From positions 1 to 41,825 of the forward strand of contig JBNAVT010000020.1 in NCBI GenBank assembly GCA_049700215.1: DNA of 41,825 nt, in the 5' to 3' direction. This DNA comes from Thermoproteota archaeon. GTDB taxonomy: Archaea > Thermoproteota > EX4484-205 > JAAOZP01. The position numbers and the translations under genes were made by a program. Position 1 is the first letter of the stretch. Every line of letters starts with the position of its first letter. A model generated the notes under the pieces. It ran no database searches. It was not told the DNA's origin and saw only the letters and a list, made by a program, of their open reading frames with translations. Shown here piece after piece: positions 2,345-41,584 of the stretch.

Positions 2345-2959
2345 TTGGTCAAAAATTTACCAACAGAAGATTTATATATTGATTCCATGTGCCCTCGACG
2401 CCGGACTATTTCTTGCCCGTCAAATATAGGAGTGCTCTGCTATCTCCTCCATTATCCTTTGAGATAACAACTCGATGAAAGCAAGTTTTGACTGGAACGC
2501 TATCCACATGTACATAGAGAATGAAAAACTATACGATAATCCCATAACTGGTAATGATTATGGGAAAGTGGGTTAACATCTTAACAATCCGTGTGAAGCC
2601 AGCGGAGCGACGCTGTATTTTTATGGATTGTATTAGTAAAACTGTATCGTTGTCAACAGCGATCCATAGCTGCATTCCATTGGGATTCAAGCACCGGTTA
2701 AATACAGACAGAGAACTCCCTCCTCATGATAACACCTAGCAGCGAAACCCTAGCACAGCTGAGAGTTGCATTCTTAAAGTGCTTGGAAACTTGAACAGGA
2801 ACCTAAAGACCATGTTAAAACCGTCATCCTCACCTCAATGATGAAGAAAATTTTCATTCTTGACTATCGCGAAGCTATAGATAAGAATGGTAGTTATCCT
2901 CCACTTGAGATAAGGAGGGATCGTGCTTTTAACCCTATTAATGAAGGTATTGGTTTCTG

Positions 2960-3253
2960 TTATTCTCTGTTAATCCGTTCATTAATACCCTTCTCGTCAA
3001 TGTGATTCCTAATATAGACCCGCACCCTCTCGCCCTTAGAAGCGGCATTGGCAGCATCTTTAACCATTAGGGCCAAGACCTCGCCCAATGGACACAGCGG
3101 CGTTGTCGCGACGAATTCCACGACTATGCTGCCGTTCTCTCTTCTAACGTCTTTAATAAGGTTGAGTTCTCCAAGGCTTAGCCCTATCTCAGGGTCGACA
3201 ACACTGGAAACAGCCTTCTTAACCTCTGAAAGCACGTCAGACTCCTTGCTCAT
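2960..3253 (-). CDS. Metal-sulfur cluster assembly factor (DUF59/SufT/MIP18 family)
   Basis: VVDPEIGLSLGELNLI and TTPLCPL motifs typical of DUF59. Confidence 0.85.
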   Translation of the reverse strand: MSKESDVLSEVKKAVSSVVDPEIGLSLGELNLIKDVRRENGSIVVEFVATTPLCPLGEVLALMVKDAANAASKGERVRVYIRNHIDEKGINERINRE

Positions 3254-3950
3254 GCTTCTTCCTCCTAGCCTCGTACTCCTCTCTAGTAATATATATTCTT
3301 GCCGGTACGCCTAGGACAACCGTGTTTGGAGGAACATTCCTCGTCACAACGGAGCCCGCTGCCACTACAGAATTATCGCCAATGCTTACTCCAGATATGA
3401 GTGTCGAGTTCGCCCCTATCACGCAGCCGTTGCCTATTACAACAGGGGTCAGCCTGCCTGAAACAGGGTAGCGATCATTAGTGACGCACGCGTAGGGTCC
3501 TATGAAAACGTTTTCGCCGACAACAGTGCCGTGTGGGAGATACACGCCTGACTGTATTCTAACGTTGTTGCCTATTGAAACACTTCCGTCGAGCATGGAG
3601 CCAGTGCCTATCAGACAGTTCTCCCCGATTCTGCTCCCTTCCCTTATTAGAATATTGTGGCCGGTTACAAGACGCTTGCCGATAACCACGTCTTCGTAAA
3701 CCACGCTTCCAGACCTTATCAGGCATGTGGAGCCTATTTTCGCGCCGCTTGACAATTCGTCGAGAACGCTTAGGTCTTCCGGCATGGCTGTTACACTTGA
3801 AAAGCTCCTCTTAGAAGGATATCCTATTATCGTGTTGAACCCGATGTAGGTTCCCTCCTCTATCTCGCTTCCCCCCAGAACCAGGTTGTTCCCTTCAAAC
3901 CTGACTGTCCTATGAATAGTCGCCTTCTTCGATACGTAGTTTTGAAGCAT
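3237..3950 (-). CDS. Hexapeptide-repeat (left-handed beta-helix) acyltransferase, sugar N-acetyltransferase-like
   Basis: Repeated [IV]G-x-x-x-x units, VTNDRYP, VAAGSVVTRNVP...VLGVPAR. Confidence 0.85.
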   Translation of the reverse strand: MLQNYVSKKATIHRTVRFEGNNLVLGGSEIEEGTYIGFNTIIGYPSKRSFSSVTAMPEDLSVLDELSSGAKIGSTCLIRSGSVVYEDVVIGKRLVTGHNILIREGSRIGENCLIGTGSMLDGSVSIGNNVRIQSGVYLPHGTVVGENVFIGPYACVTNDRYPVSGRLTPVVIGNGCVIGANSTLISGVSIGDNSVVAAGSVVTRNVPPNTVVLGVPARIYITREEYEARRKKHEQGV

Positions 3951-4012
3951 CGTTTAAGCTCAGCCGGGCTTTAAAATAAAGATTTTTAACCCTCGTGTAA
4001 ATACGGCTAGCG

Positions 4013-5761
4013 ATGCAACCGCGTGGAAAAACCGGGTGTACGCTCGCCTCTACACTGGTTCTAATACTGGTTTCCAGCCTTCTCCTTAGCGTAAATACTT
4101 CAGGCCAGCTTTTCGAACTGTCAGACCTCTACGTGTATGTGAAGGCTAGCATGAATGAGGATGCGATAGCTTTTTTCAACGTGAACCTGACGATGGGCCC
4201 GAAGACGATAAGAGTACTAGGCGAAGCCAACTGGACTTTCAAGATACAGCTTCCTAAATGGGCGGCACCAAACCTTGTTTCATCATTAGACATGCCTAAG
4301 CTATTCCTCGAGAATGGTGAGAAGATAGCTCTGAGGCTTGAGGAGGCTGAGGATTACGATTATCTTGTTGCGGAGCTGCCTCCTATTCAAGGCGAGCGGC
4401 TTAACGCTACAGTCAGGTTCGGCTTGGTTCAGCGCGACGAAGTAGCTGAGGACTACGTCGGGTTTAAGCTACCGGTTTTAACAGGCTTCAGCATTATGCC
4501 TGAATATGTTAACTTCACCTTTCTGACCACGGGCGCGATTAAAGGGTATTCGCTACAGTACTTCAACCCTATTTTCCTGAATGACACTGTAATAGGATTA
4601 TGGAACCATTATTTCCGAACGACGACCGTTGGCAACGTGACTGGTAGAATAGTGTTCTCGAAACAGTTCGACAGGTGTGTGATAAAAAGCCTAGCTAGGG
4701 AGATAACCGTGACGGAGCAGCTCCAGGTTCATGTGAAAGACCTGTTGAAGCTGAGATACGTTGGCAATTCCTACAGGAGCGAAATACTGAGGATAAACAT
4801 CCCCGCCAGTCTTAACCAATCGGTTAAGGCGAAGGACGCTCTGGGGACGCTTCAAACATACACCAGCGCATCATCAGTAGCAAACATGAGTGTTATAACG
4901 GTTTACTCAAGGTACTCCTTGAGACCCGGCCAAGAGTATGAAGCAGTGGTCGAATATAGCGTTCCGGTTAAAAGCGTGCTCATGAACTCAAGCGGGGGCT
5001 TAACCACTATCCGGCTTACAGGCCTGCCCAACTATACAGATATTGTTAACACGTATTCTTTAAACGTTAGAGTAGAGGGGAAGAAAGGCTGGAAGATAGC
5101 GACGGGATCAACCGTTGAAAGCATTGAAAACGGTGGGGCTTTCTCCCTAGCTGTGAGTAACGCTATGCCGGACATACTGACCCAGTCGTTTCAGATCAGT
5201 TTCGCTTCAGCACAGCTAGAAGCCGGTAAAAGCCTCTCAATACTCCTCGGCCTATTGACGCTACTCGTATTGATGGTGACCGAGATTTTCAGAGAGGAGG
5301 CTACAAAGCCTGCTGAGCCTAAAGCGGGTAAAGAGATTGAGAGCCTTGTAAACGACCTCGTGGAGGCTCTTCGCGATAAAATCGATTGCGAAACCCTTCT
5401 TGAGGAGATTAAGGTTAAGAACGCTGTCGGAAAGATTTCTTCTAAAGAGTATAGGGAGAGAGTTGGAGAATACGAGCGGAGAACTTCTAGGGCTGAGAAA
5501 AAGATTTTGAAAACCATTGAAGAGATCACCCGGAGAAGCTCCAGGGTCGCCGAGGAGGTTGAGAGGCGCTACAGGGTCTTCGAGGAAATAAACAGCGACT
5601 CTAGAAACATGATTAACAGCACCATCGAAAGGTTTAGGGGAGGACGCATTACGAGAAGCGTTTTCGAAAACCTGACTGGAAAATACTTGAAGGAGAATAA
5701 AAAGAGGAGGGAGACGGCTGCGAGCGACGTGTATTCCGCCCTGGAAGAACTACTGTCGTAA
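4013..5761 (+). CDS. Ribophorin-I (RPN1/Ost1)-like type I membrane glycoprotein
   Basis: Signal peptide, large beta-rich luminal part with IKSLAREITV...KAKDALGTLQT...SRYSLRPGQEYEAVVEYSVP resembling RPN1 motifs, one TM helix, charged helical C-terminal tail, many N-x-S/T sequons. Confidence 0.6.
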   Translation: MQPRGKTGCTLASTLVLILVSSLLLSVNTSGQLFELSDLYVYVKASMNEDAIAFFNVNLTMGPKTIRVLGEANWTFKIQLPKWAAPNLVSSLDMPKLFLENGEKIALRLEEAEDYDYLVAELPPIQGERLNATVRFGLVQRDEVAEDYVGFKLPVLTGFSIMPEYVNFTFLTTGAIKGYSLQYFNPIFLNDTVIGLWNHYFRTTTVGNVTGRIVFSKQFDRCVIKSLAREITVTEQLQVHVKDLLKLRYVGNSYRSEILRINIPASLNQSVKAKDALGTLQTYTSASSVANMSVITVYSRYSLRPGQEYEAVVEYSVPVKSVLMNSSGGLTTIRLTGLPNYTDIVNTYSLNVRVEGKKGWKIATGSTVESIENGGAFSLAVSNAMPDILTQSFQISFASAQLEAGKSLSILLGLLTLLVLMVTEIFREEATKPAEPKAGKEIESLVNDLVEALRDKIDCETLLEEIKVKNAVGKISSKEYRERVGEYERRTSRAEKKILKTIEEITRRSSRVAEEVERRYRVFEEINSDSRNMINSTIERFRGGRITRSVFENLTGKYLKENKKRRETAASDVYSALEELLS

Positions 5762-5887
5762 ACGCTTAGCTTACAATTCTAATCGAGTATTCAATACGAG
5801 TCCTGAAGCCGCAAGTGCTCGCTGCGATTTTCGAAGCGAGCGCGCGTAACCATGAGCAGCTTCAAAAAACCGTTTTAACCATGCTAG

Positions 5888-6004
5888 TAGCCCGGGAGAG
5901 ACTCGAACTCTCATCAAGGGGTTTCTCCGCAAGCGCGCGCTAAATTGCACCAAAGCCCCTCATGTTTGCCATTACAATCAGCGCCTTTTCGGCTCCACCG
6001 GGCT
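5888..6004 (-). tRNA. tRNA-Gln(TTG) with two introns (10/11 at 5994-5977, 18 nt; 37/38 at 5949-5923, 27 nt)
   Basis: Spliced 72 nt: AGCCCGG TG GTGT AATGGCAA ACAT G AGGGG CT TTG GA CCCCT TGAT GAGAG TTCGAGT CTCTC CCGGGCT A. Archaeal A1-U72 pair; both introns fold into BHB-type motifs; CCA not encoded. Confidence 0.9.
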
Positions 6005-6168
6005 TCCCGGGCCTGTTGAAAACCTGCTTGAAGGGATTTAATAACTTTTAGTCCTAGTAGCTTTATAGCTCAACCCTCTTTTTCGAGCCGTCGGGCTCAA
6101 GCAGGTGTGCGCGTGTTCTTTTAACTTCTGCGTAAAGAACACACCACTTAGGCTAACTGTGCTAATTC

Positions 6169-7341
6169 CTATGGATAGGGCTTCCATACGGAGAAAGATT
6201 TTCTGAAGCCGTGCTCTCGTCCATAGGTGTAAACCTTGTATCCGGATGTCCATGTGCCGGTCCTGATCCAAAGCGTCGCATACGGGATGCTGCTTCTGCT
6301 CACGCCCAATCCTACGGATACCGAGGGCCAGCCCCCGCCTAGGTTGAAGCTTAGACCCACGCTGAAAGTCCATGCTAAATCGGATCTTTGAGTTAGGGGG
6401 ATGCTTCTCCAGGGGTGGTTTTGGTCGGTGATGTATGGGTCGGATCCTGAGGCTTGGCCGTTCCAGGATGAACTGGAATAGCCTGCATATATCGGATCCA
6501 TGGAAGTATCTGCCGCGTAAACTTTCTCCCTGTAGACTCTGGTGTTGGGGATGGAAATGTGGCATAGTATGTATTTGAATCTAAATATTACTGCGCCTTT
6601 CAGTTTACCTGTGCACTGTGGAGTTCCAACACCACTATCAAGCGTTACCACCGTGCTCCCGGGAGAACTCCAGTCTGTTACATACATGTTTAGATACGAG
6701 TCCCATGTTCTCTCCTTTGTCTCCACATCCACCTTCGCACCAATGGGCCATTCTGAATATGCCCAGATCTGGTCCCACACGGCATACTCTACAACTATCG
6801 TATCCTTCCACGTTTCACTGTCAGGGGGTACGCTTAAGACGCTGGCTGGCGATGGTGCCTCGCGCTCCAGAGGCTCGTCTAGAACAACCTCGGCGGAGAA
6901 GGCGTCTATCGGCCAATTCATGAAGGTAGGGTCGAGAGCCGTAGTTAGGCTTCCCAAGAAGCCGGTTTTATCATCGTATGCAAGTATCCAGATGTTAGTC
7001 GCGGGATACACATCCGTCTCCCTGCCCAGGCTTGGCAGGTAAAGCCTGTTCATTTTCACCCTTGGAATCGTAAACCAAAAAGCGTAGATACCATTTTGCC
7101 CGCCTGAGCCCTTTGCTATGAGACTCGGCCCTCGGTCAGTCAGGTGGAATACTTGGATAATAGGATAGGGTGCTTCCGCACCGTTCCTCGTCTTCACTCT
7201 AACGAGTATGTTGACGTGTTGGGCATTCGGGTCTGTTAAAGGCTTTACACCCACATATATTAAAGGTAGTACTAGAACGAGGATGAGGAAAAGCATGATT
7301 ACCATGGAAACCCTGTCGGGTTTAGGTTTGCTCGCAGCCAT
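6169..7341 (-). CDS. Hypothetical membrane-anchored/secreted beta-rich protein
   Basis: 390 aa. N-terminal TM (MVIMLFLILVLVLPLIYV), Pro-rich linker, Trp/Tyr/Ser/Thr-rich C-terminal domain. TATA-like tract at about 7366-7375. Confidence 0.75.
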   Translation of the reverse strand: MAASKPKPDRVSMVIMLFLILVLVLPLIYVGVKPLTDPNAQHVNILVRVKTRNGAEAPYPIIQVFHLTDRGPSLIAKGSGGQNGIYAFWFTIPRVKMNRLYLPSLGRETDVYPATNIWILAYDDKTGFLGSLTTALDPTFMNWPIDAFSAEVVLDEPLEREAPSPASVLSVPPDSETWKDTIVVEYAVWDQIWAYSEWPIGAKVDVETKERTWDSYLNMYVTDWSSPGSTVVTLDSGVGTPQCTGKLKGAVIFRFKYILCHISIPNTRVYREKVYAADTSMDPIYAGYSSSSWNGQASGSDPYITDQNHPWRSIPLTQRSDLAWTFSVGLSFNLGGGWPSVSVGLGVSRSSIPYATLWIRTGTWTSGYKVYTYGREHGFRKSFSVWKPYP

Positions 7342-34517: not shown

Positions 34518-37127
34518 TTATGAAACGGGGCATATGCTCCATCCGCAGTCTATGCAGGTGAGGCACCCCCCCTCTTTGACGAGCCTTTTACTGCCGCAGC
34601 TTGGGCATTCAGCATGCGCGTCACTCTTGTTGAGGATTAGAACGGGTTTCTCTGAGGCGGGTGTTGTTTTCGAAGAAACGCTTTCAGATTCCTCTCTGAA
34701 ATCCTTTATCTCAACCCCTAGGGATCTCGCGATTTCAATGGTCGAGTTGCTCACGATCCTAGCGTACTTTCCGAGCTTCGAGGAGGGTGTGACCAAGACC
34801 TGATACGGGAGAGAACCGTCACGGTAAATAGTAACTCCCTTGACTCTCATTGCGCGTGCCAGAGTAAAAGCTTTCTGAACATCCTCTACAGTAACCCAGT
34901 TCGGCATGTTTATGGTTTTGCTGACTGCAGCGCAAATCCATTTCGTGAACTCTGCTTGAGCCCTCACGTGGTCCCACCAGGGTATATCGTAAGCAGTTAG
35001 GAACACGCGGCCCATCTCCTCTGGAAACTCTAGGCCCATGAGCGACCCGCCGTTGTCTGAAATCATTTTAAGCGTCTTCTCGTCGTAAAGCCCGTTTTCC
35101 CTTAACGTCTTCTCAAACTCAACATCCACGTAATAGAAGGTTCCTACACTAACCCTCTTCTCGTATATTAGGGCGAACTGAGGCTCAATCCCAGAGGAAA
35201 CGTCGACAAGCATGGAGATAGAGCCGGTTGGGGCAATAGTGGTCACCTCCGCGTTCCTAACTCCAAACTTCATCACCTCCTGCTGCAGGTCGCTCCAGGG
35301 AAGGGTCTGCCAATCCTTATGGTAGAAGCCTTCAACCGGCATCTCGCCGTCAGGATAGGATGAGGCAGCATAAAGCGGGAAGGCACCACGCTCCTTGGAA
35401 AGCCTGCAGGACTCTTTCATAGCGTAGAAAGTCAGATACTCCGCTATCCTGCTCATCATCCTAAAGCCCTCCTCGCTATTGTAAGGTATTCTCAGGGCGA
35501 AGAGTAAGTCAGCCAAGCCCATGACGCCTAGGCCAACCTTCCTAGTAAGCTTGGTTTCACGCTCTATCTCGCTTAAAGGAAACTTGTTCACGTCTATCAC
35601 ATTGTCCAGAAACCTCAGGGCAACTCCGATTACGCGGCTAAACTCCTCCCAGTCGAAGACTGCGCGCGCGCCGTTTCTCTTCAAGAATGCATACAGGTTT
35701 ATCGAACCCAGGTTGCAGGACTCGTAAGGATACAGTGGCTCCTCCCCGCAAGGGTTAGTAGACTTTATAAGACCCTTATGCTTCACCATTACGTTTCTCC
35801 TGTTAATGTTTTCAAGGAAGAGGACACCGGGGTCGCCTGTCCTCCAGGCCATCTCCGCCATCTTCAAGAAAACGTCTCTGGCTTGAACGGTTTTCCAAAC
35901 CTTCCCGTCCCTCGGGTTGACAAGCGGGTACGGCACGTCCTTCTCCAAGTAATCCCAAAAATCATCCTTTATTAGGACGGATATGTTGAAGTTTTCAAGC
36001 CTCCCCCTTTCAGACTTAGCGGCTATAAACGTCTCTATATCCGGGTGGTTAACCTCGAGAATCCCCATGTTCGCCCCCCTTCTCTTACCTCCCTGTTTAA
36101 CCACTTCAGTAACAGTGTCTATTATCCGCATGAAGGAAACAGGCCCGCTTGCCACCCCTGAAGTACTGGAGACAATGTCCCCAGCAGGCCTGAGCTTAGA
36201 ATAGTTTATCCCTATGCCTCCGCCGGATTTAAAGATGATCGCCGCCTGGGTTGCAGCGTTCATAATTGACTCAATATTGTCCTCAACATCCAGTACGAAG
36301 CAGGCTGAGAGCTGGCCGAGCCTCGTTCCAGCGTTAAACAGGGTCGGGGAATTCGGCATGAATTTCCTGGAAACCATGAGATCATAATAGGCTTTGAAGT
36401 TCTCATAGTAGTTTTCAAACTCGCCTGAAAGAAGCATTCCGAGAAAACCACTCCAGGAAACCTTCATCCTGCCTTGAGAATTAAGCTCGTCGTAAAGAGC
36501 CTTCATCCGTTCCAAATGATGCTCGTTCCAAACGGCAGCGTACCCGTTGCCGCTCTTCCCTAGGCCAAGCCTATTAGCGTATTGGCTGGTGTTAAACTCT
36601 TCCCTTGGAAACGCTGGCAGACCTCCCTCCTTGGAGAAAACCCTCGGGTCGTGAAGAATATCCGGTATCACAACGGTTAAAGCAACCCTTTGAAACAACT
36701 GTTTAGGAGACTCTACGAGCTTCCCATTCTCATCCTTAAGCAGGTAACGGTTCACAAGCAGCCTGATCGCGTTGACAGAAAACTCCTTATCAACCTCGTC
36801 CACAAAGCTCTTCTGCAGAAGAGCCTTCTTCTCCTCCCTTATCCTCTCCCTCTCCTTCCTGTAGAGAATATAGGCTTTAGCAACATCGTAAAGATCAAAC
36901 TTCATAAGGGCGAACTCCACCACGTCCTGAATATCCTCAACATGCGGAGTCTCGCCGCTCTCATACTTCCCGTTTAAAACGTTTAAAACATAGTTAACAA
37001 CCCTCTCCAAAGCCTTCTCATCATACTGTTTCACACTCACCATGGCCTTTGCAATAGCGTTCCTAATCCTATCCGGGTCGAAATCAACGATCCTGCCGTC
37101 CCTCTTAACAACCTTCCTTTTCTCCAT
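34518..37127 (-). CDS. nrdJ: Adenosylcobalamin-dependent (class II) ribonucleotide reductase with ATP cone and C-terminal zinc ribbon
   Basis: VVKRDG ATP cone, PNSPTLFNAG, QLSACF, TNPCGE, CNLGS, TIAPTG, SKTIN, YRDGS; no intein seen. Confidence 0.95.
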   Translation of the reverse strand: MEKRKVVKRDGRIVDFDPDRIRNAIAKAMVSVKQYDEKALERVVNYVLNVLNGKYESGETPHVEDIQDVVEFALMKFDLYDVAKAYILYRKERERIREEKKALLQKSFVDEVDKEFSVNAIRLLVNRYLLKDENGKLVESPKQLFQRVALTVVIPDILHDPRVFSKEGGLPAFPREEFNTSQYANRLGLGKSGNGYAAVWNEHHLERMKALYDELNSQGRMKVSWSGFLGMLLSGEFENYYENFKAYYDLMVSRKFMPNSPTLFNAGTRLGQLSACFVLDVEDNIESIMNAATQAAIIFKSGGGIGINYSKLRPAGDIVSSTSGVASGPVSFMRIIDTVTEVVKQGGKRRGANMGILEVNHPDIETFIAAKSERGRLENFNISVLIKDDFWDYLEKDVPYPLVNPRDGKVWKTVQARDVFLKMAEMAWRTGDPGVLFLENINRRNVMVKHKGLIKSTNPCGEEPLYPYESCNLGSINLYAFLKRNGARAVFDWEEFSRVIGVALRFLDNVIDVNKFPLSEIERETKLTRKVGLGVMGLADLLFALRIPYNSEEGFRMMSRIAEYLTFYAMKESCRLSKERGAFPLYAASSYPDGEMPVEGFYHKDWQTLPWSDLQQEVMKFGVRNAEVTTIAPTGSISMLVDVSSGIEPQFALIYEKRVSVGTFYYVDVEFEKTLRENGLYDEKTLKMISDNGGSLMGLEFPEEMGRVFLTAYDIPWWDHVRAQAEFTKWICAAVSKTINMPNWVTVEDVQKAFTLARAMRVKGVTIYRDGSLPYQVLVTPSSKLGKYARIVSNSTIEIARSLGVEIKDFREESESVSSKTTPASEKPVLILNKSDAHAECPSCGSKRLVKEGGCLTCIDCGWSICPVS

Positions 37128-37263
37128 GCGAAGCTTAAACTTGACTACGAGTATTAAAACATTAAACGATTTTCTACCCGCTTAATTAACCGGAGAAACA
37201 TGGTAAAACAATTATTCTTCAGAATTAAACACCAACCATGCCTTGTTCAAACCCGGTTGAAAA

Positions 37264-37401
37264 CGTCGGGGGCGGGATTTGAACCCGCACGGCCCTCCTG
37301 GCGGCCACATTCGTAGCGCGCACTCATGGGCCACGAGCTTAGCAGGCTCGCGGTGTATTTATTAACCCTCTCGCGCCTTACCAGGTTCGGCACACCCCGA
37401 C
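37264..37401 (-). tRNA. tRNA-Ser(GCT) with two non-canonical introns (30/31 at 37369-37347, 23 nt; variable arm at about 37327-37300, 28 nt)
   Basis: Spliced about 87 nt: GTCGGGG TGT GCC GAACCTGGTAA GGC G CGAGC CT GCT AA GCTCG T GGCCC AGGA GGGCC GT GCGGG TTCAAAT CCCGC CCCCGAC G. BHB central helices CGCG/CGCG and TGGC/GCCG. Confidence 0.85.
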
Positions 37402-37554
37402 GTCTAAGTAGGGTTAATGTAGGAGGCAAATAAAGCTTTTTACTCCCCGCTTATAAATAGCATGCGAAGAGCTGTGAGCATCCTCTTAGCGGTAAGAATG
37501 GCGGTTTAAAGAGGAATGGTGGGACACACATGACAGACTAGTGCGGAAGGATTC

Positions 37555-38304
37555 CTAACCCAACCCCCATCTTATCCGTCTGATAGCTAAAATGAACGCA
37601 ATCATTGCATAGATGATGCTTATTAGCAAATTTGTTAGAATGTTTACAAGGGTGGAGCCGGTGATCATGGCCTTCAGTAATAAAGCAAGCGGGGTCGTAG
37701 GTACTAAATAGATAAGATACTGAAAAACCGTTGGAAAGTTCTCCATGGGAAGGAAAAGAGGATTAGCAAAAGTGAATATCATGGAGAGTATTGAGGTGAA
37801 ATTGTAAATCCATTCTTTTTCCAATACGTAAACTCCGATTAAGAAACCTACAGATAGGCAAGTTAGCCAGCCGGGTAAAGATACTATGAAGAGGAAAATG
37901 AGACTGGTAATCGGGATTTCCCCAGTGAACAAAGATAGCAAATAGTAAAACGGAATTAGAATGAGTAACCCACTACTGTTAAGAATTAAACTGTTTAACG
38001 CAATTCCCAAGGCGTAGGAAAACGGATGAATCGGCAAAGTTATAAAAATCGCCAATGTTCTAGATCGCTCGTCTGAAGCCATCCCTTGACCTATTACGGT
38101 TATAGCAGAAACCGCCGTAAAAAATATCACAACAGCTGAAAAAGTATAAGTTACGTTTGCAATACGAAGAACAAATATAGCGACTAAACTTACAAGAATA
38201 GGAAAAACTATAAGAGTTAAAAAACCTCCAAAACTTCTAAAAATCCATTTGCTCTTCATCACGGCTATTATTAAACCGTCTTGAAGTATCTTACTGTATC
38301 CCAT
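37555..38304 (-). CDS. ABC-2 type exporter permease (RiPP cluster)
   Basis: Six TM helices, DERSRTLAIFITLPI, LPMENFP...YLVPTT; overlaps the ATPase stop. Confidence 0.85.
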   Translation of the reverse strand: MGYSKILQDGLIIAVMKSKWIFRSFGGFLTLIVFPILVSLVAIFVLRIANVTYTFSAVVIFFTAVSAITVIGQGMASDERSRTLAIFITLPIHPFSYALGIALNSLILNSSGLLILIPFYYLLSLFTGEIPITSLIFLFIVSLPGWLTCLSVGFLIGVYVLEKEWIYNFTSILSMIFTFANPLFLPMENFPTVFQYLIYLVPTTPLALLLKAMITGSTLVNILTNLLISIIYAMIAFILAIRRIRWGLG

Positions 38305-39232
38305 CTTTTTCTCCCTCCATCATTTCTATATAGATATCTTCTAAAGAAATATGTGAAAAGATGAATTTTAGATTGTTTTGTTTTAGAAAACGGAACAATT
38401 CAAGCATGCTTTTTTCAGAAATCTCGGAAAATCTTAACTCAATAGCATCAGCATCTCTTATAATCTTAACTTCTTCTCCTTTTGCTACAAATATGTTTTC
38501 TATCTTCATAAAATCAACACTGCTCTCATATATGATGAGCTTATGCCGATACCCGACGCCTGTAATTATTTCTTTAGGCGACTTGCATAATATGAGACGG
38601 CCGTTTCTCATTATCCCAATTCTGTCCGCTATTCTTTCAGCCTCATCAACATAATGTGTGGTAAAGAGTATCGTAGTCCCCTTTTTCTTTAATTGTTCAA
38701 GGTGTTCAAGCATATTTTTACGCGCCACGGGATCTAGCCCAGCAGTAGGCTCATCCAATATAAGGATTCTAGGTTCATGGGCCAAGGCAGAGGCTATGAG
38801 AACACGTTTCTGAAGACCATTGGAAAGCGTGCGAACAAGACTCCTCCGATATTCTTCTAATTCCTGAATTTGGATCGCTTCTTCTGTAATTTTTAATGCT
38901 TGTTCCTTCGAGAACCCCCTGAGCCTCACTAAATAAAAAACGTGCTCTTCAACTGTTAAGTCAAAAAAGGGATGGGCACCTTGTGGTACCGCTCCTACAA
39001 TCTCCTTAATTTTAATCGGGTTTTTCAAAACATCGTAGCCCATGACGAAAAGCCTGCCGGAAGTTGGTCTAAGCTCTGTTGTAATCATTCTCGCGAAAGT
39101 GGTTTTCCCTGCCCCATTAGGTCCTAGAAGTACAAAAATTTCTTCATCTTTTACTTCAACGCTTACTTTATTATTTCCGATAGTCCCGTTAGGATACACT
39201 TTTGTAAGATCATGGGCCTCTATTGCATTCAT
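38291..39232 (-). CDS. ABC exporter ATP-binding subunit (RiPP cluster)
   Basis: GPNGAGKTT, LSNGLQKR, ILDEPTAGLDP, TTHYVDEAE; ATGA overlap with the rSAM stop. Confidence 0.93.
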   Translation of the reverse strand: MNAIEAHDLTKVYPNGTIGNNKVSVEVKDEEIFVLLGPNGAGKTTFARMITTELRPTSGRLFVMGYDVLKNPIKIKEIVGAVPQGAHPFFDLTVEEHVFYLVRLRGFSKEQALKITEEAIQIQELEEYRRSLVRTLSNGLQKRVLIASALAHEPRILILDEPTAGLDPVARKNMLEHLEQLKKKGTTILFTTHYVDEAERIADRIGIMRNGRLILCKSPKEIITGVGYRHKLIIYESSVDFMKIENIFVAKGEEVKIIRDADAIELRFSEISEKSMLELFRFLKQNNLKFIFSHISLEDIYIEMMEGEKDGIQ

Positions 39233-40620
39233 TTGAAACCACGTGCCATGCCTATTATTTTATCTGCATAAAGACTTAAGGCTTCTTGTAGAGTTACCTT
39301 TATTTCCTTTTTTACTTGACACTGGTCACCAGGAGTTATCCATCCTCTTATTTTCTGATACATACAGCCTCCGCCGCATAATAACATAAATTCACAGTTA
39401 ATACATTCAGACTGCTTTGTCACGTCTTTTTCCCAAACCTTTAAGTATTCTTCATTTAGGATTAAGTCTGGAACATATCTTCCGACGATCAACTCCTTTT
39501 GGCCAATTGCAAATGTGCAACTATATACATCTCCATAGGGGTCAAAAACATATGTATGTTTAATATTTGAAGGACAAAAGGCAAATAGAGGAGGAGTAAC
39601 TTTTCTATTTAATAAATTTATGATAACTTTTAAATATGTAATACCAACTGGTATATCGTGAAGTATATTATTTTTCTTTTTTAATAAGAAGATTTCTTTT
39701 ATCATTTCCGGAACACTTACTAACTTACAATGTTCTTCTATTATACATTTTCCATAATTCTGGGTTATTCCTAGGTACCATCTAAAGTTAGGTAAATCCA
39801 GCCAACCTCTAGAGTGAAAATCTTCTGCTAGATTATGTAAATGCGGCAGGTTATATAGATCTACATTCGTCCTAACACTCGTTCTTATTCCTCTTTTTAC
39901 GCATTCCTGTAAACCATTTATAATCTTGTCAAAAGTTCCTTCTCCATTTAGATACATCCGTCGTTTGTCATGAATAGTCCGAGGTCCATCTATAGTGGTT
40001 TGTATTTCATCAATCATCTGTTTGTATGCGTCAAAGATTGGCATATACTCTGCCAAAGTAGTGCCATTAGTAAATATAGAAACTTTCCAATTTAATGCGC
40101 TAGCTTTCTCGAAAATTTTTGTTACACTTTTCCATACAAGTATGTTGTCAAGTAAAGGTTCACCTCCAAAGAGAAATATCTCTGCCTGCTTTGAATTTCT
40201 CTCAGTAATTGATGACATAGCTTCAAATGCCTTTTCTACAAGATTTGACGTAAGAATTTGTGGTAATGATTTAATAGATGATGATTCATAACAATAAATA
40301 CATGCCAAATTACATAAATACGTTGGAATTATTACAAAGGTGAAGGGATTGCTCTTTATTCTATTCAAATATGCGCGATAGGCTTTTGAAAAAACTTCTT
40401 CTAATGATGAACTACTATGGCTAATGTATTCGCGTTCTTGCAGATATTTTACTAATTCTCCATTTGTAGCATTAGGTTGCTCTTCCTCTATTAATGATTC
40501 TATTTTTTCCTTTACTTCACTAGTAACAACATCGGCTGCACCATTAAGTGTATTTAGTATGAGGTAATAGTCCTCTTTTAAGGGAAATAAGAGTACAAAT
40601 TTATTTAAAAAATACTTCAT
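39229..40620 (-). CDS. Radical SAM/SPASM peptide maturase with N-terminal RRE-like domain
   Basis: CNLACIYC, FGGEPLL, TNG, TIDGP..HDKRR; seven-Cys SPASM C-x13-G-x4-C...C-x2-C-x5-C-x3-C...C; about 90-aa N-terminal extension (YYLILNTLNGAADVV). ATG 40620 or TTG 40629. Confidence 0.92.
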   Translation of the reverse strand: MKYFLNKFVLLFPLKEDYYLILNTLNGAADVVTSEVKEKIESLIEEEQPNATNGELVKYLQEREYISHSSSSLEEVFSKAYRAYLNRIKSNPFTFVIIPTYLCNLACIYCYESSSIKSLPQILTSNLVEKAFEAMSSITERNSKQAEIFLFGGEPLLDNILVWKSVTKIFEKASALNWKVSIFTNGTTLAEYMPIFDAYKQMIDEIQTTIDGPRTIHDKRRMYLNGEGTFDKIINGLQECVKRGIRTSVRTNVDLYNLPHLHNLAEDFHSRGWLDLPNFRWYLGITQNYGKCIIEEHCKLVSVPEMIKEIFLLKKKNNILHDIPVGITYLKVIINLLNRKVTPPLFAFCPSNIKHTYVFDPYGDVYSCTFAIGQKELIVGRYVPDLILNEEYLKVWEKDVTKQSECINCEFMLLCGGGCMYQKIRGWITPGDQCQVKKEIKVTLQEALSLYADKIIGMARGFK

Positions 40621-40638
40621 CGTTCTCAAGCGCGCGCG

Positions 40639-40827
40639 CTAATACGATACAATCACACAGATGAGAGGGGAGCAAGTTCCACCACAACCACCGCCATTCA
40701 TCCCACATATTATTGGAGAACACGCACTACCGCATAAAGGTTCTATTCCAGACGAGTCTTGGTTAGTCCATAAGTCTTCAGTAGGGATGAGAGGAAACAC
40801 ACCTAATGGGAAAGTTTTCTCCTCCAT
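40639..40827 (-). CDS. Putative RiPP precursor peptide (62 aa, six-Cys core)
   Basis: MEEKTFPLGVFPLIPTEDLWTNQDSSGIEPL-CGSACSPIICGMNGGGCGGTCSPLICVIVSY. AAAGGAGG upstream of ATG 40827; ends 18 nt before the maturase ATG. Confidence 0.85.
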   Translation of the reverse strand: MEEKTFPLGVFPLIPTEDLWTNQDSSGIEPLCGSACSPIICGMNGGGCGGTCSPLICVIVSY

Positions 40828-40856
40828 CTTCTCTCCGCCTCCTTTCTCCAAAGAAT

Positions 40857-40881
40857 AATATAAAAAGCGGCTTTTTATATT
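40857..40881. promoter_or_regulatory. 12-bp perfect inverted repeat over the precursor promoter
   Basis: AATATAAAAAGC-G-GCTTTTTATATT; each arm contains a TATA-like element. Confidence 0.55.
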
Positions 40882-41204
40882 TTTTTAACATATATAAAAT
40901 ATATTTTAGGATACGCTATTATCGTTTAAACTTCTATGTCGCTTTATTGTCACACGTCTTGAAAGCCTAGTTGCTATTCAGTCTTTTTCGCGTTCACTAA
41001 ATGGTATTGTGGAAGTGAAGAAGAACACGTGCTTGCGGCTTTTCCCAATCCTAGCCTTACTGTCAACCTTCCTTTCATCACCCTTAAATACTTACGCTTC
41101 CCTTCGGACTGCTTACGATGATAGTGGAGCATCAATTGGTTTCAACTTCATAAGGCTTAAAAGAACTGGTGTTTCGCCTTCACAGAGAGGAAGTTTAAGG
41201 CCGG

Positions 41205-41534
41205 ATGGATATGATTGGGATCTTGAGTCAGATTATTGTTAGTACCATTATAGTTGCTCCAGTGCTTTGGATCGCGGGTAGATTTTCGCAGAGCGCGCGC
41301 TATTTGGATAGCTGTCCTAGGGGTGGTCTTGGGTTCAATCGTCGGCGCTTTTCTCAAAGGCTGGGTCGCGGCTCTGATCACGTTTATAATTTGGCTGGCG
41401 CTTATCAAGCACTTCTTCGACTGCAGATGGCTGAAAGCCCTTGTAATAGCAGTTGTCGCAGCAGAATCTTCGCGGTTATAACCGTGGTTCTAGCTCTCGT
41501 CGGAATCTTACCACGTTCTTTAGACGTGGGATGA
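41205..41534 (+). pseudogene. Small membrane protein gene broken by two frameshifts
   Basis: QIIVSTIIVAPVLWIAGR | AIWIAVLGVVLGSIVGAFLKGWVAALITFIIWLALIKHFFDCRWLKALVIAVVAA | IFAVITVVLALVGI. Continuous hydrophobic segments switch frame near 41278 and 41462. Confidence 0.65.
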
Positions 41535-41584
41535 ATGGCGTCGATAGGTTTAAATAGGAGATTTTCCCATATTAGCTTTAGGCG

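What the first reader, a model, noticed from the sequence alone, without database searches (positions are those of the whole stretch)
37555..40881. Candidate new archaeal radical-SAM RiPP system: six-Cys precursor, SPASM maturase and ABC exporter
Seen: four tightly coupled minus-strand genes in the order 62-aa peptide, rSAM/SPASM enzyme (CxxxCxxC, seven-Cys SPASM, N-terminal extension), ABC ATPase, permease. Established: rSAM/SPASM enzymes with an RRE next to Cys-rich peptides install Cys-to-carbon thioethers (sactipeptides such as AlbA/ThnB products; ranthipeptides such as CteB/PapB products), and few archaeal RiPP pathways are characterised. Inference: this is an exported, crosslinked peptide, possibly an archaeocin or signal. 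The core does not match the SCIFF, subtilosin, thuricin or freyrasin patterns as I recall them.
Basis: partly seen in the sequence, partly recalled or inferred. Interest (0 to 1): 0.92.

Follow-up and report, generated by a model that had tools for sequence, protein, structure and literature searches.

The report
Unnamed archaeal radical-SAM peptide gene island
A hot-spring archaeon carries a small, foreign-looking four-gene island that most likely makes, cross-links and exports (or resists) a cysteine-rich peptide of a family not yet named, and sister species have deleted the peptide and its enzyme while keeping the transporter.

Summary
On the minus strand lie a 62-aa six-Cys peptide gene (40639-40827), an RRE-radical SAM-SPASM enzyme (39229-40620), a DrrA-like ABC ATPase (38291-39232) and an ABC-2 permease (37555-38304), with 4- and 14-nt gene overlaps. 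No curated family claims either key protein. The enzyme's best NCBIfam scores are CefB 150/600 and TIGR04463 146/525; the peptide has no hit. Two metagenomic peptides (51-55% identical) share the leader motif GV[FY]PLIxTxDLxTN and five Cys in two CxxxCSP[IL] units. A complex model places that leader motif on the enzyme's N-terminal RRE strand (score 0.76, best control 0.00). The cluster is an AT-rich island (33-39% GC against 47%) beside tRNA-Ser. It was found intact in 1 of 17 genomes of the genus. Two sister species carry different deletions of core plus enzyme but keep intact, constrained transporter genes. Best reading: a new family of thioether-type (ranthi/sactipeptide-like) RiPP; the chemistry is untested. 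A possible antagonistic role is a weaker inference. This scan has noted many other archaeal Cys-peptide/radical-SAM systems on other DNA; none shares sequence with this one. A new variant of a known kind, moderately interesting.

The parts
40828..40936 (-). 5' region of the operon. It holds an AT-rich TATA-like tract, a 15-nt-arm palindrome (40854-40884) and GGAGG just before the ATG. This part is kept in the deletion alleles of sister species.
   Evidence: Sequence read; inverted repeat I4; blastn of G006 and G009 covers 40809-40936 and 40732-41035. Function as promoter or operator is inferred.
40639..40827 (-). Precursor peptide, 62 aa. Leader is about residues 1-31, with the motif GVFPLIPTEDLWTN at 9-22. 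Core is about residues 32-62, with two CxxxCSP[IL]IC units.
   Evidence: ORF; homologues P0125 and P0129, with 23 invariant positions including 5 Cys; residues 6-14, 16 and 18-22 are modelled on the RRE. No NCBIfam or Pfam hit.
40621..40638 (-). 18-nt spacer between the peptide stop and the enzyme start, containing a (GC)5 palindrome.
   Evidence: Eight letters GCGCGCGC stand at the joint of one deletion allele (table 5c). Any role is unknown.
39229..40620 (-). RRE-radical SAM-SPASM peptide maturase, 463 aa.
   Evidence: Pfam Radical_SAM 57.4 bits (cut-off 29.5) and Fer4_12. NCBIfam best hits are CefB, TIGR04463, Clo7bot and PapB, all below cut-off. AF2 model pLDDT 90.5, pTM 0.89. Foldseek: CteB E 2.5e-16, TigE, anSME, ChlB, SuiB. 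PDB sequence search: CteB 1.2e-15.
38291..39232 (-). ABC transporter ATPase, DrrA-like, 313 aa.
   Evidence: Pfam ABC_tran 95.6 bits; NCBIfam TIGR01188 drrA 226 bits (cut-off 312). Orthologues of 89-95% identity are kept in G006 and G009, dN/dS 0.17-0.32.
37555..38304 (-). ABC-2 type permease, 249 aa.
   Evidence: Pfam ABC2_membrane_3 43.9 bits (cut-off 31.6). Orthologues of 93-95% identity in G006 and G009; a fragment in G013. dN/dS 0.13-0.22.
39266..39273 (-). 8-nt direct repeat CTTTATGC, copy in the enzyme tail; one end of the 1466-nt deletion seen in G009 and in contigs of runs X2/X3.
   Evidence: joint 39265->40732, 8 letters fit both sides.
40732..40739 (-). 8-nt direct repeat CTTTATGC, copy at the leader/core boundary of the peptide gene; the other end of that deletion.
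37256..37402 (-). tRNA-Ser(GCU)-like gene that bounds the island; it carries extra inserts relative to the G006 copy.
   Evidence: T arm at 37272-37288. Sequence read. ARAGORN calls tRNA-Ser(gct) at the syntenic place of G006. Alignment. Not called in the window by ARAGORN or by Rfam at gathering score.

Best explanation
This is an accessory, horizontally acquired four-gene RiPP island of an unnamed family.

Proposed steps (step 1 is supported by modelling and conservation, not by experiment; steps 2-4 are inferred):
1. The 62-aa precursor is bound through its leader motif (GV[FY]PLIxTxDLxTN), which adds as a strand to beta-3 of the enzyme's N-terminal RiPP recognition element.
2. The core, two CxxxCSP[I/L] units with five conserved Cys, is threaded into the radical SAM active site. 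There 5'-deoxyadenosyl radical abstracts an H atom from an acceptor carbon. A Cys thiolate held on the open iron site of auxiliary cluster 1 then closes a thioether, repeatedly, up to five or six times. Whether the bond goes to the alpha carbon (sactionine) or to a beta/gamma carbon (ranthionine), and which residues accept it, cannot be read from sequence.
3. The translationally coupled DrrAB-like ABC-2 transporter moves the product out and/or protects the producer.
4. No leader peptidase is encoded in the island.

Sister species deleted core plus enzyme yet kept intact, constrained transporter genes. This fits a secreted antagonistic peptide with retained immunity, but that last point is the weakest inference.
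For: Gene order and coupling.

Enzyme class:
- CxxxCxxC plus seven conserved SPASM Cys.
- The phmmer alignment to CteB pairs five of them (C368, C406, C409, C415, C419) with CteB residues at C362, C400, C403, C409 and C413. C349 and C434 lie outside that alignment and are matched to CteB C344 and C432 only by order and spacing.
- CteB has three Cys on AC1 and four on AC2, and the substrate Se binds AC1 in PapB and Tte1186 (PMC10177961, passages read).
- The nearest curated families all act on Cys-rich precursors: CefB 150 bits, TIGR04463 146, Clo7bot 123, PapB 115.
- A TIGR04463 member, CrpC, installs ranthionine (PMC13692751, abstract and sections 5 and 8 read).
- Fold: CteB E 2.5e-16, TMq 0.57-0.60.
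- The N-terminal three strands plus three helices are RRE-like.

Leader binding:
- Complex model score 0.76 against a best control of 0.00. That mark was reached by 58 of 80 solved complexes and 2 of 110 mismatched pairs.
- The runs agree in at least 35% of contacts; partner pLDDT is 46-48.
- The interface is enzyme 26-33, 35-36, 55-63 and 79-83 with peptide 6-14, 16 and 18-22.
- These are the peptide positions invariant in P0125 and P0129.
- Solved CteB, SuiB and ChlB leader complexes exist, so the pass may partly reflect likeness to them.

Co-occurrence:
- P0129 (55% identical peptide) and P0003 (60% identical enzyme) are both JGI proteins on a single contig of 3232 nt.
- Five of 6 RRE-bearing archaeal relatives have a short Cys ORF directly upstream, and 5 of 6 have an adjacent ABC ATPase.

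Island status:
- GC is 0.33-0.39 for the three large genes against 0.47 for the contig.
- No orthologue in 60 relatives or in 400 genomes of the phylum.
- The site is empty or holds other cargo in the 6 further genus members examined.

Transporter retention: G006 and G009 keep both genes at 89-95% identity with dN/dS 0.13-0.32.
Against: - No chemistry has been measured.
- The core lacks the acceptor motifs of characterised ranthipeptides. There is no CX3D, no C-X-X-Q/D, and no Asp, Glu or Gln after the first Cys.
- The best structural TM-score is to TigE (0.63), a cyclopropylglycine synthase, and the core is rich in Ile, Leu and Val.
- Pfam SPASM and PqqD models gave no hit at E <= 0.1, so the SPASM and RRE calls rest on motif, fold and modelling.
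- C298 is conserved among the three orthologues and could be a fourth ligand to AC1. I could not measure distances in the model.
- The transporter's persistence without the peptide could equally mean it has an unrelated job.
- One deletion allele (G009) is out of frame and ends 35 nt before the ATPase start, so there is no general signal that translational coupling is preserved.
- dN/dS of the transporter is higher than that of the flanking RNR gene (0.085-0.098).
Confidence: 0.6

Rival explanations
1. The island is a RiPP system, but the enzyme installs something other than thioethers. Candidates include carbon-carbon cross-links or cyclopropylglycine on the Ile/Leu/Val residues, epimerisation, or modification of the invariant Ser-Pro-Ile/Leu. 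The cysteines would then serve as disulfides or metal ligands.
For: TigE has the highest TM-score (0.63). Known ranthipeptide acceptor residues are absent from the core (sequence). S37-P38-I39 and S53-P54-L55 are as invariant as the Cys. DynA, YhhB and FxsB (non-thioether cross-linkers) also appear among the NCBIfam hits.
Against: The four best NCBIfam hits are maturases of Cys-rich peptides. The one feature shared by the cores of this peptide and of the five relatives' upstream ORFs is Cys, mostly in CxxxC spacing. The seven-Cys SPASM pattern matches the CteB scheme, directly for five Cys and by order and spacing for the other two.
Confidence: 0.2
2. The peptide is modified as proposed but is not an antagonist. 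It would be a signal, a metal-binding or redox peptide, or a cell-envelope component. The ABC-2 transporter would have its own housekeeping or drug-efflux role and merely share the operon.
For: The transporter genes stay intact and constrained in G006 and G009 without peptide or enzyme. No immunity protein, peptidase or regulator is present in the island. Other notes of this scan tie some archaeal Cys-peptide systems to metal uptake (unchecked notes).
Against: The same order (peptide, enzyme, ABC ATPase, ABC-2 permease) recurs in a 33%-identical paralogous cluster of G006. The first three genes recur in another family (G366). This argues that the transporter belongs to the system. The patchy pattern of intact, deleted and empty sites among close species is the pattern expected of conflict genes.
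Confidence: 0.15
3. The small ORF is not the substrate. The enzyme would be an anaerobic sulfatase-type or other protein maturase acting elsewhere.
For: anSME is among the fold and sequence matches, and sulfatase_rSAM scores 75.9 bits.
Against: That score is far below the cut-off of 349. anSME matches from residue 92 on and lacks the N-terminal domain. The peptide co-varies with the enzyme and is modelled on its RRE. Both deletion types remove core and enzyme together.
Confidence: 0.03

Closest known systems
CteB / CteA (SCIFF ranthipeptide system; PDB 5WGG, 5WHY; NCBIfam TIGR03974)
   Same: RRE + radical SAM + SPASM architecture. It is the best solved-structure match by sequence (E 1.2e-15) and by Foldseek E-value (2.5e-16). 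Five of the seven SPASM Cys align directly with CteB's; the other two match by order and spacing (3 on AC1, 4 on AC2; alignment, PMC10177961 passages). The precursor is short, with six Cys.
   Different: The enzyme scores 85 bits against a cut-off of 425. The peptide has no hit to any NCBIfam model. Identity is 17-19% in the structural alignment. As I recall, SCIFF loci usually lack a transporter; this was not tested here.
CrpC / CrpA of Methanococcus voltae (TIGR04463; ranthionine on a protein; PMC13692751)
   Same: Archaeal. RRE + radical SAM + SPASM with three clusters. Cys-rich repeat substrate with an N-terminal leader-like part. Second-best NCBIfam hit, 146.5 bits over residues 14-440.
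   Different: Below the cut-off of 525. CrpA is a large protein with a 17-residue motif repeated 10 times and C-X-X-Q/D motifs (section 8 of the paper). Here the substrate is a 62-aa peptide with two CxxxCSP[IL] units and no Gln or Asp in the core. No ABC transporter is described in the three-gene Crp cluster.
CefB, Cys-every-fifth maturase (NCBIfam NF038107)
   Same: Best NCBIfam hit, 150.4 bits, aligned over residues 4-423 including the N-terminal domain.
   Different: The cut-off is 600. Cys spacing here is 4, 5, 7, 4, 5 rather than a regular five. I know of no characterisation of CefB (recalled; not searched by name).
PapB / PapA (freyrasin, ranthipeptide; NCBIfam NF047865)
   Same: Thioether-forming SPASM enzyme with six cross-links on a six-Cys precursor. 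Hit of 115 bits. Substrate chalcogen binds AC1 (PMC10177961 passages).
   Different: The cut-off is 340. PapA uses CX3D motifs with Asp as acceptor; this core has no Asp.
Sactipeptide systems with ABC-2 type export/immunity genes (subtilosin Alb cluster; SkfB, PDB 6EFN)
   Same: A radical SAM/SPASM or twitch enzyme next to a Cys-bearing precursor and an ABC transporter in one operon. SkfB is a weak PDB hit (E 1.9e-4).
   Different: No family-level match (RumMC-type model 56 bits against 720). The role of Alb transporters in immunity is recalled, not checked here.

Membership tests
Radical SAM / SPASM superfamily | CxxxCxxC motif and Pfam Radical_SAM above gathering score | tested here: met
   C103/C107/C110 are invariant in 68 sequences. 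PF04055 scores 57.4 bits against 29.5.
Radical SAM / SPASM superfamily | C-terminal SPASM cysteines (CX2CX5CX3C plus flanking Cys) for two auxiliary clusters | tested here: met
   C349, C368, C406, C409, C415, C419 and C434 are conserved. C368-C419 align with the CteB SPASM region. Note that the Pfam SPASM model gave no hit at E <= 0.1.
RRE-dependent RiPP maturases | N-terminal PqqD-like winged-helix domain that binds the leader as an added strand | tested here: inconclusive
   The AF2 model has strands 9-13, 18-23 and 28-33, then helices 34-45, 54-62 and 70-90. The complex model puts leader 6-22 on residues 26-33 and nearby helices: score 0.76, best control 0.00; the mark was reached by 58 of 80 solved complexes and 2 of 110 mismatched pairs; at least 35% of contacts shared between runs; partner pLDDT 46-48. 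There is no Pfam PqqD hit, RRE-Finder was not available, and binding has not been measured.
SCIFF / CteB (TIGR03974) | Enzyme above the curated cut-off; precursor matches the SCIFF model | tested here: not met
   85 bits against 425; peptide has 0 NCBIfam families.
PapB family ranthipeptide maturase (NF047865) | Enzyme above cut-off; CX3D motifs in the precursor | tested here: not met
   115.4 bits against 340; no Asp in the core.
TIGR04463 (CrpC-type) | Enzyme above cut-off; large Cys-rich protein substrate with C-X-X-Q/D repeats | tested here: not met
   146.5 bits against 525. The substrate here is 62 aa without Gln or Asp in the core. The motif is as described in PMC13692751, section 8.
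CefB, Cys-every-fifth (NF038107) | Enzyme above cut-off; Cys at every fifth residue | tested here: not met
   150.4 bits against 600. Spacing is 4, 5, 7, 4, 5. The spacing rule is taken from the family's name only.
Anaerobic sulfatase maturase (TIGR03942) | Enzyme above cut-off; no leader-binding domain; sulfatase substrate | tested here: not met
   75.9 bits against 349.45. An N-terminal domain is present, and the adjacent gene is a peptide, not a sulfatase.
Sactipeptides / ranthipeptides (RiPP classes) | Cys sulfur linked to an alpha carbon (sacti) or to a beta/gamma carbon (ranthi) of a partner residue | not testable with these tools
   Needs mass spectrometry and NMR or desulfurisation labelling of the modified peptide.

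The most novel reading that the evidence does not exclude
This would be a new class-level variant of archaeal thioether peptide, with CxxxCSP[I/L] units and acceptor residues unlike any characterised ranthi- or sactipeptide. It would act as an archaeocin in hot-spring Brockarchaeota. The intact, deleted and empty alleles at one tRNA-Ser hotspot would then record a producer / immune non-producer / sensitive polymorphism. That would be the first RiPP-based antagonism system seen in this archaeal lineage.
Probability: 0.25. Interest if true: 0.75.

Novelty: new variant of a known kind. Interest (0 to 1): 0.5.

Why it matters
Few archaeal RiPP pathways have been characterised. The first archaeal SPASM thioether enzyme was reported in 2026 and acts on a protein, not a peptide (PMC13692751).

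This locus offers a compact, testable archaeal peptide system:
- a defined leader motif;
- a two-unit core with five conserved Cys and no known acceptor motif, so it could reveal a new cross-link regiochemistry;
- natural deletion alleles that separate the transporter from production.

If the product is antagonistic, it would give a handle on microbial conflict in an uncultured hot-spring lineage. If not, it is one more unnamed family among the many radical SAM/SPASM peptide systems.

Tried and rejected

Collection scans.
- Genome contigs with the enzyme found only a 25%-identical Vallitaleaceae locus, which I did not examine.
- Metagenome contigs with the three-orthologue alignment found nothing.
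- Metagenome contigs with P0003 found only two 27% hits, not examined.

Expression. No RNA holder was listed for the stretch, so nothing can be said about expression.

Read laying. Parts without cover in X2, X3, X5 and X6 are not used as evidence. Only the joints and the bridging pieces are. X2 and X3 give identical figures and are counted as one. G009 and these runs may not be independent of each other.

ESM Atlas look-up of the peptide. All scores were 0.83 or lower, so they are leads only, and none was used.

Other phmmer hits to the peptide (P0123, P0124, P0126-P0128). These are long repeat proteins. I fetched P0123 and P0126. P0123 repeats a CSPL-containing unit and P0126 matches through repeats carrying a single Cys. 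I treated all five as unrelated; P0124, P0127 and P0128 were not fetched.

Idea that the deletions preserve the reading frame into the ATPase start. Rejected as a rule: G006 and the X5/P0122 allele are in frame, but G009 is not.

Idea that the tRNA-like stretch is a half-tRNA attachment-site remnant. Rejected: both acceptor halves are present, and G006 has a full tRNA-Ser there.

Sigma-70 and terminator scan. It gave no more sites than shuffles and does not apply to archaea.

15-nt inverted match 40692-40706 / 41526-41540. No second peptide gene was found there; probably chance.

Not run. RRE-Finder, RadicalSAM.org networks, antiSMASH, and a rooted tree of the enzyme clade to name a donor.

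Papers. Supplements were closed. Supplemental Data set 1 and Figures S3-S4 of PMC13692751 may list relatives of this enzyme or peptide, and I could not see them. Searches for prior description: 'Brockarchaeota' + 'RiPP' gave 2 papers, seen in the listing only and neither about this. Searches listed no paper on such a cluster in this lineage.

Full report
WHAT IS THERE. The window is a whole contig (G000:C20) of a 2.09-Mb, 94.6%-complete archaeal genome. The nearest named homologue of the enzyme is from a Candidatus Brockarchaeota MAG (P0002, 86% identity). Four genes lie on the minus strand:
- a 62-aa peptide, 40639-40827;
- a 463-aa radical SAM enzyme, 39229-40620;
- a 313-aa ABC ATPase, 38291-39232;
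- a 249-aa ABC-2 permease, 37555-38304.

The last three overlap by 4 and 14 nt. The peptide gene is preceded by GGAGG and an AT-rich TATA-like tract with a 15-nt-arm palindrome. An 18-nt spacer with a (GC)5 palindrome separates it from the enzyme gene. The peptide has Cys at residues 32, 36, 41, 48, 52 and 57, arranged as two units C-G-x-x-C-S-P-[I/L]-I-C.

THE ENZYME. Pfam finds Radical_SAM (57.4 bits) and Fer4_12 only. NCBIfam gives 75 hits, all far below their curated cut-offs. The best are CefB at 150/600, TIGR04463 at 146/525, Clo7bot at 123/600, PapB at 115/340 and SCIFF maturase at 85/425. The anaerobic sulfatase maturase model scores 76/349.

In an alignment of 68 homologues the CxxxCxxC cysteines are conserved, as are seven C-terminal cysteines: C349, C368, C406, C409, C415, C419 and C434. 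The phmmer alignment to CteB pairs five of them (C368, C406, C409, C415, C419) with CteB residues at C362, C400, C403, C409 and C413. C349 and C434 lie outside that alignment and are matched to CteB C344 and C432 only by order and spacing. In CteB, three Cys hold auxiliary cluster 1 and four hold cluster 2. In PapB and Tte1186 the substrate's (seleno)cysteine binds cluster 1 (PMC10177961, passages read).

The AlphaFold2 model is confident (pLDDT 90.5, pTM 0.89). Its first 90 residues form three strands and three helices, the layout of a RiPP recognition element. Foldseek ranks CteB first (E 2.5e-16, TMq 0.57-0.60). TigE follows (TMq 0.63), then anSME, ChlB and SuiB.

THE PEPTIDE IS REAL AND HAS RELATIVES. 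No NCBIfam or Pfam model matches it. A full HMMER pass over 1.84 billion representatives found one true short relative, P0125 (65 aa, ENA, 774-nt contig). BLASTP gives 24 of 47 identical residues, E 2e-14. A profile of the two sequences then found P0129 (68 aa, JGI).

P0129 sits on a single contig of 3232 nt. So does P0003, the 60%-identical enzyme from the same source. They are therefore very probably neighbours, though I could not read the contig.

The three peptides share G9, V10, P12, L13, I14, T16, D18, L19, T21 and N22 in the leader. They also share P30-L31 before the first Cys, then C32, C36-S37-P38-I39, C41, C48 and C52-S53-P54-L55. C57 is private to this copy. The genome holds only one copy of the peptide gene.

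LEADER-RRE CONTACT. The complex model scored 0.76 (runs 0.76, 0.73, 0.76) against a best control of 0.00. That mark was reached by 58 of 80 solved complexes and by 2 of 110 mismatched pairs. The runs share at least 35% of contacts, and partner pLDDT is 46-48. The confident interface is enzyme 26-33 (the third strand), 35-36, 55-63 and 79-83 with peptide residues 6-14, 16 and 18-22. These are the positions that are invariant among the three peptides.

Leader complexes of CteB, SuiB and ChlB have been solved, so the pass shows likeness to them at least. It does not show binding.

WIDER FAMILY. After the three orthologues, identity drops to 33%. I examined six relatives from the same phylum that keep the N-terminal domain: G008, G006, G012, G366, G258 and G186.
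- Five have a 32-60-aa Cys-bearing ORF ending from 3 nt inside to 68 nt upstream of the enzyme gene. G186 had none of 20 aa or more within 350 nt.
- Five have an ABC ATPase next to the enzyme by tblastn with the window's ATPase. In G012 it lies upstream on the opposite strand. None was found in the 10 kb of G258.
- G006:C96 repeats the full order of peptide, enzyme, ATPase, ABC-2 permease.

Their leaders begin with K-[FVI]-[VI]-[PIV]-L, like K4-T-F-P-L here. None of these peptides matches an NCBIfam model.

AN ACCESSORY ISLAND. GC is 0.377 for the permease, 0.389 for the ATPase and 0.328 for the enzyme. The flanking ribonucleotide reductase gene has 0.497 and the contig 0.467 (dip also).

No orthologue of the enzyme was found in the other 60 genomes (16 of the same genus). 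None was found in the 400 other genomes of the phylum, where 18 of 401 matched at E <= 1e-18. None of those exceeded 34% identity, apart from G000 itself and a 47-residue remnant in G006.

The island lies between a tRNA-Ser(GCU)-like gene and a small membrane-protein gene. Twelve further genus members have the RNR gene, and I examined six of them:
- G007 and G008 have the tRNA directly beside the small-protein or glycosidase-like gene (gaps of about 350 and 200 nt).
- G010 has 946 nt without an ORF of 70 aa.
- G013, G011 and G002 hold other ORFs.

The place is therefore a variable hotspot.

DELETION ALLELES. G009 and G006 keep RNR, tRNA, permease and ATPase in the same order, with permease identity of 95% and 93%. 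Both lack the core and nearly the whole enzyme.
- In G009 the window's 39274-40731 is missing, with 8 nt shared at the joint. The window has the 8-mer CTTTATGC as a direct repeat at 39266-39273 and 40732-40739, 1466 nt apart. An 18-kb contig of runs X2/X3 shows the same 1466-nt skip. The fused ORF is out of frame and stops early.
- A 1852-nt contig of run X5, which encodes P0122, has the same skip plus GCGCGCGC at the joint. This puts leader residues 1-29 in frame with the enzyme's last residues. Whether it derives from the first allele cannot be told.
- In G006 a different stretch, 39370-40808, is missing. The first residues of the leader are fused in frame to the last 46 residues of the enzyme.

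Neither main type can be derived from the other, so there were at least two independent losses. G013 keeps only a permease fragment with a stop, on another contig. An intact junction between the peptide end and the enzyme start is bridged at 100% identity by a small contig in run X6, from a different study than the probable source run.

TRANSPORTER CONSTRAINT. Pairwise dN/dS among G000, G006 and G009 is 0.13-0.22 for the permease and 0.17-0.32 for the ATPase. This includes the G006-G009 pair, in which both genomes lack the enzyme. The RNR gene gives 0.085-0.098. dS of the transporter genes (0.08-0.28) is lower than that of RNR (0.34-0.59). That hints at more recent exchange of the island between species, but it could also reflect composition.

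READING. The island is a RiPP cluster whose enzyme recognises the leader through an RRE. By its nearest relatives, its Cys scheme and the conserved Cys of its substrates, the enzyme most likely forms thioethers. Regiochemistry and acceptors are open: the core has none of the Asp, Glu or Gln acceptors of PapA or CrpA.

Loss of production with retention of a constrained transporter, at a hotspot that is empty in other species, fits an antagonistic peptide with transporter-based immunity. An independent role of the transporter is not excluded.

COMPARISON AND NOVELTY. The kind is well known: an RRE-radical SAM-SPASM enzyme beside a Cys-rich precursor. An archaeal member of TIGR04463 was characterised in 2026 (PMC13692751). 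This scan has noted many other archaeal Cys-peptide/radical-SAM systems (220 notes hold the search words). None shares sequence with this one. A parallel first-reader note on the same stretch (e1-6361553) calls it an AT-rich island beside tRNA-Ser, which my tests confirm.

Both proteins fall outside every curated family and the core motif is new, so I class the finding as a new variant of a known kind. Searches for Brockarchaeota with RiPP, and for archaeal ranthipeptides and SPASM genome mining, listed no description of this cluster. Supplements were closed.

Noticed in passing
window 37256-37402 (-): A tRNA-Ser(GCU)-like gene is missed by ARAGORN and by Rfam at gathering score. Acceptor stem, D arm, anticodon arm (loop CUGCUAA) and T arm are readable. 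It has about 22 extra nt between the D arm and the anticodon stem, and a longer variable region than the G006 copy, which ARAGORN does call. These are probably non-canonical introns.
   Followed up: partly
window 41205-41534 (+): The small membrane-protein gene that flanks the island is one clean 114-aa ORF in G007, G010 and G013. Here it is split over two frames (109-aa and 75-aa ORFs). Contigs of other runs show small insertions at 41281-41291. It is likely a frameshifted pseudogene in this genome.
   Followed up: partly
L052 1549-6879 (G013:C162); L056 4307-6694 (G002:C38); L054 about 2788-6648 (G011:C16): The same tRNA-Ser hotspot holds unrelated cargo in other species of the genus. One example is a 997-aa ORF that looks like a P-type cation ATPase in G013, and there are several ORFs of unknown function.
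   Followed up: no
L015 4539-6116 (G008:C1): A paralogous peptide/enzyme/ABC cluster is also decayed. The enzyme ORF ends at 300 aa and runs into a 206-aa ORF that matches only the C-terminal two-thirds of an ABC ATPase. The 40-aa four-Cys peptide gene and the permease remain.
   Followed up: partly
L048 5022-6709 (G012:C9): Another radical SAM/SPASM gene (502 aa) is preceded by a 60-aa ORF. The ORF has six Cys, mostly at every fourth residue, near its N-terminus and a hydrophobic Ala/Gly-rich tail. This is a different candidate precursor type in the same genus.
   Followed up: no
window 40854-40884: A near-perfect palindrome (15-nt arms, 1 nt between them) lies between the TATA-like tract and the ribosome-binding site of the peptide gene. 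It could be an operator.
   Followed up: no
window 40692-40706 and 41526-41540: A perfect 15-nt inverted match links the core-coding part of the peptide gene and a stretch 820 nt upstream. No second peptide ORF was seen there; it may be chance.
   Followed up: partly
RNR gene, window 34518-37127, and its orthologues: The open frame around the class II-like ribonucleotide reductase is about 870-887 aa here and in several species. It is about 1267-1274 aa in G008, G002, G004, G003, G015 and G012, which suggests an intein or another insertion in those copies.
   Followed up: no
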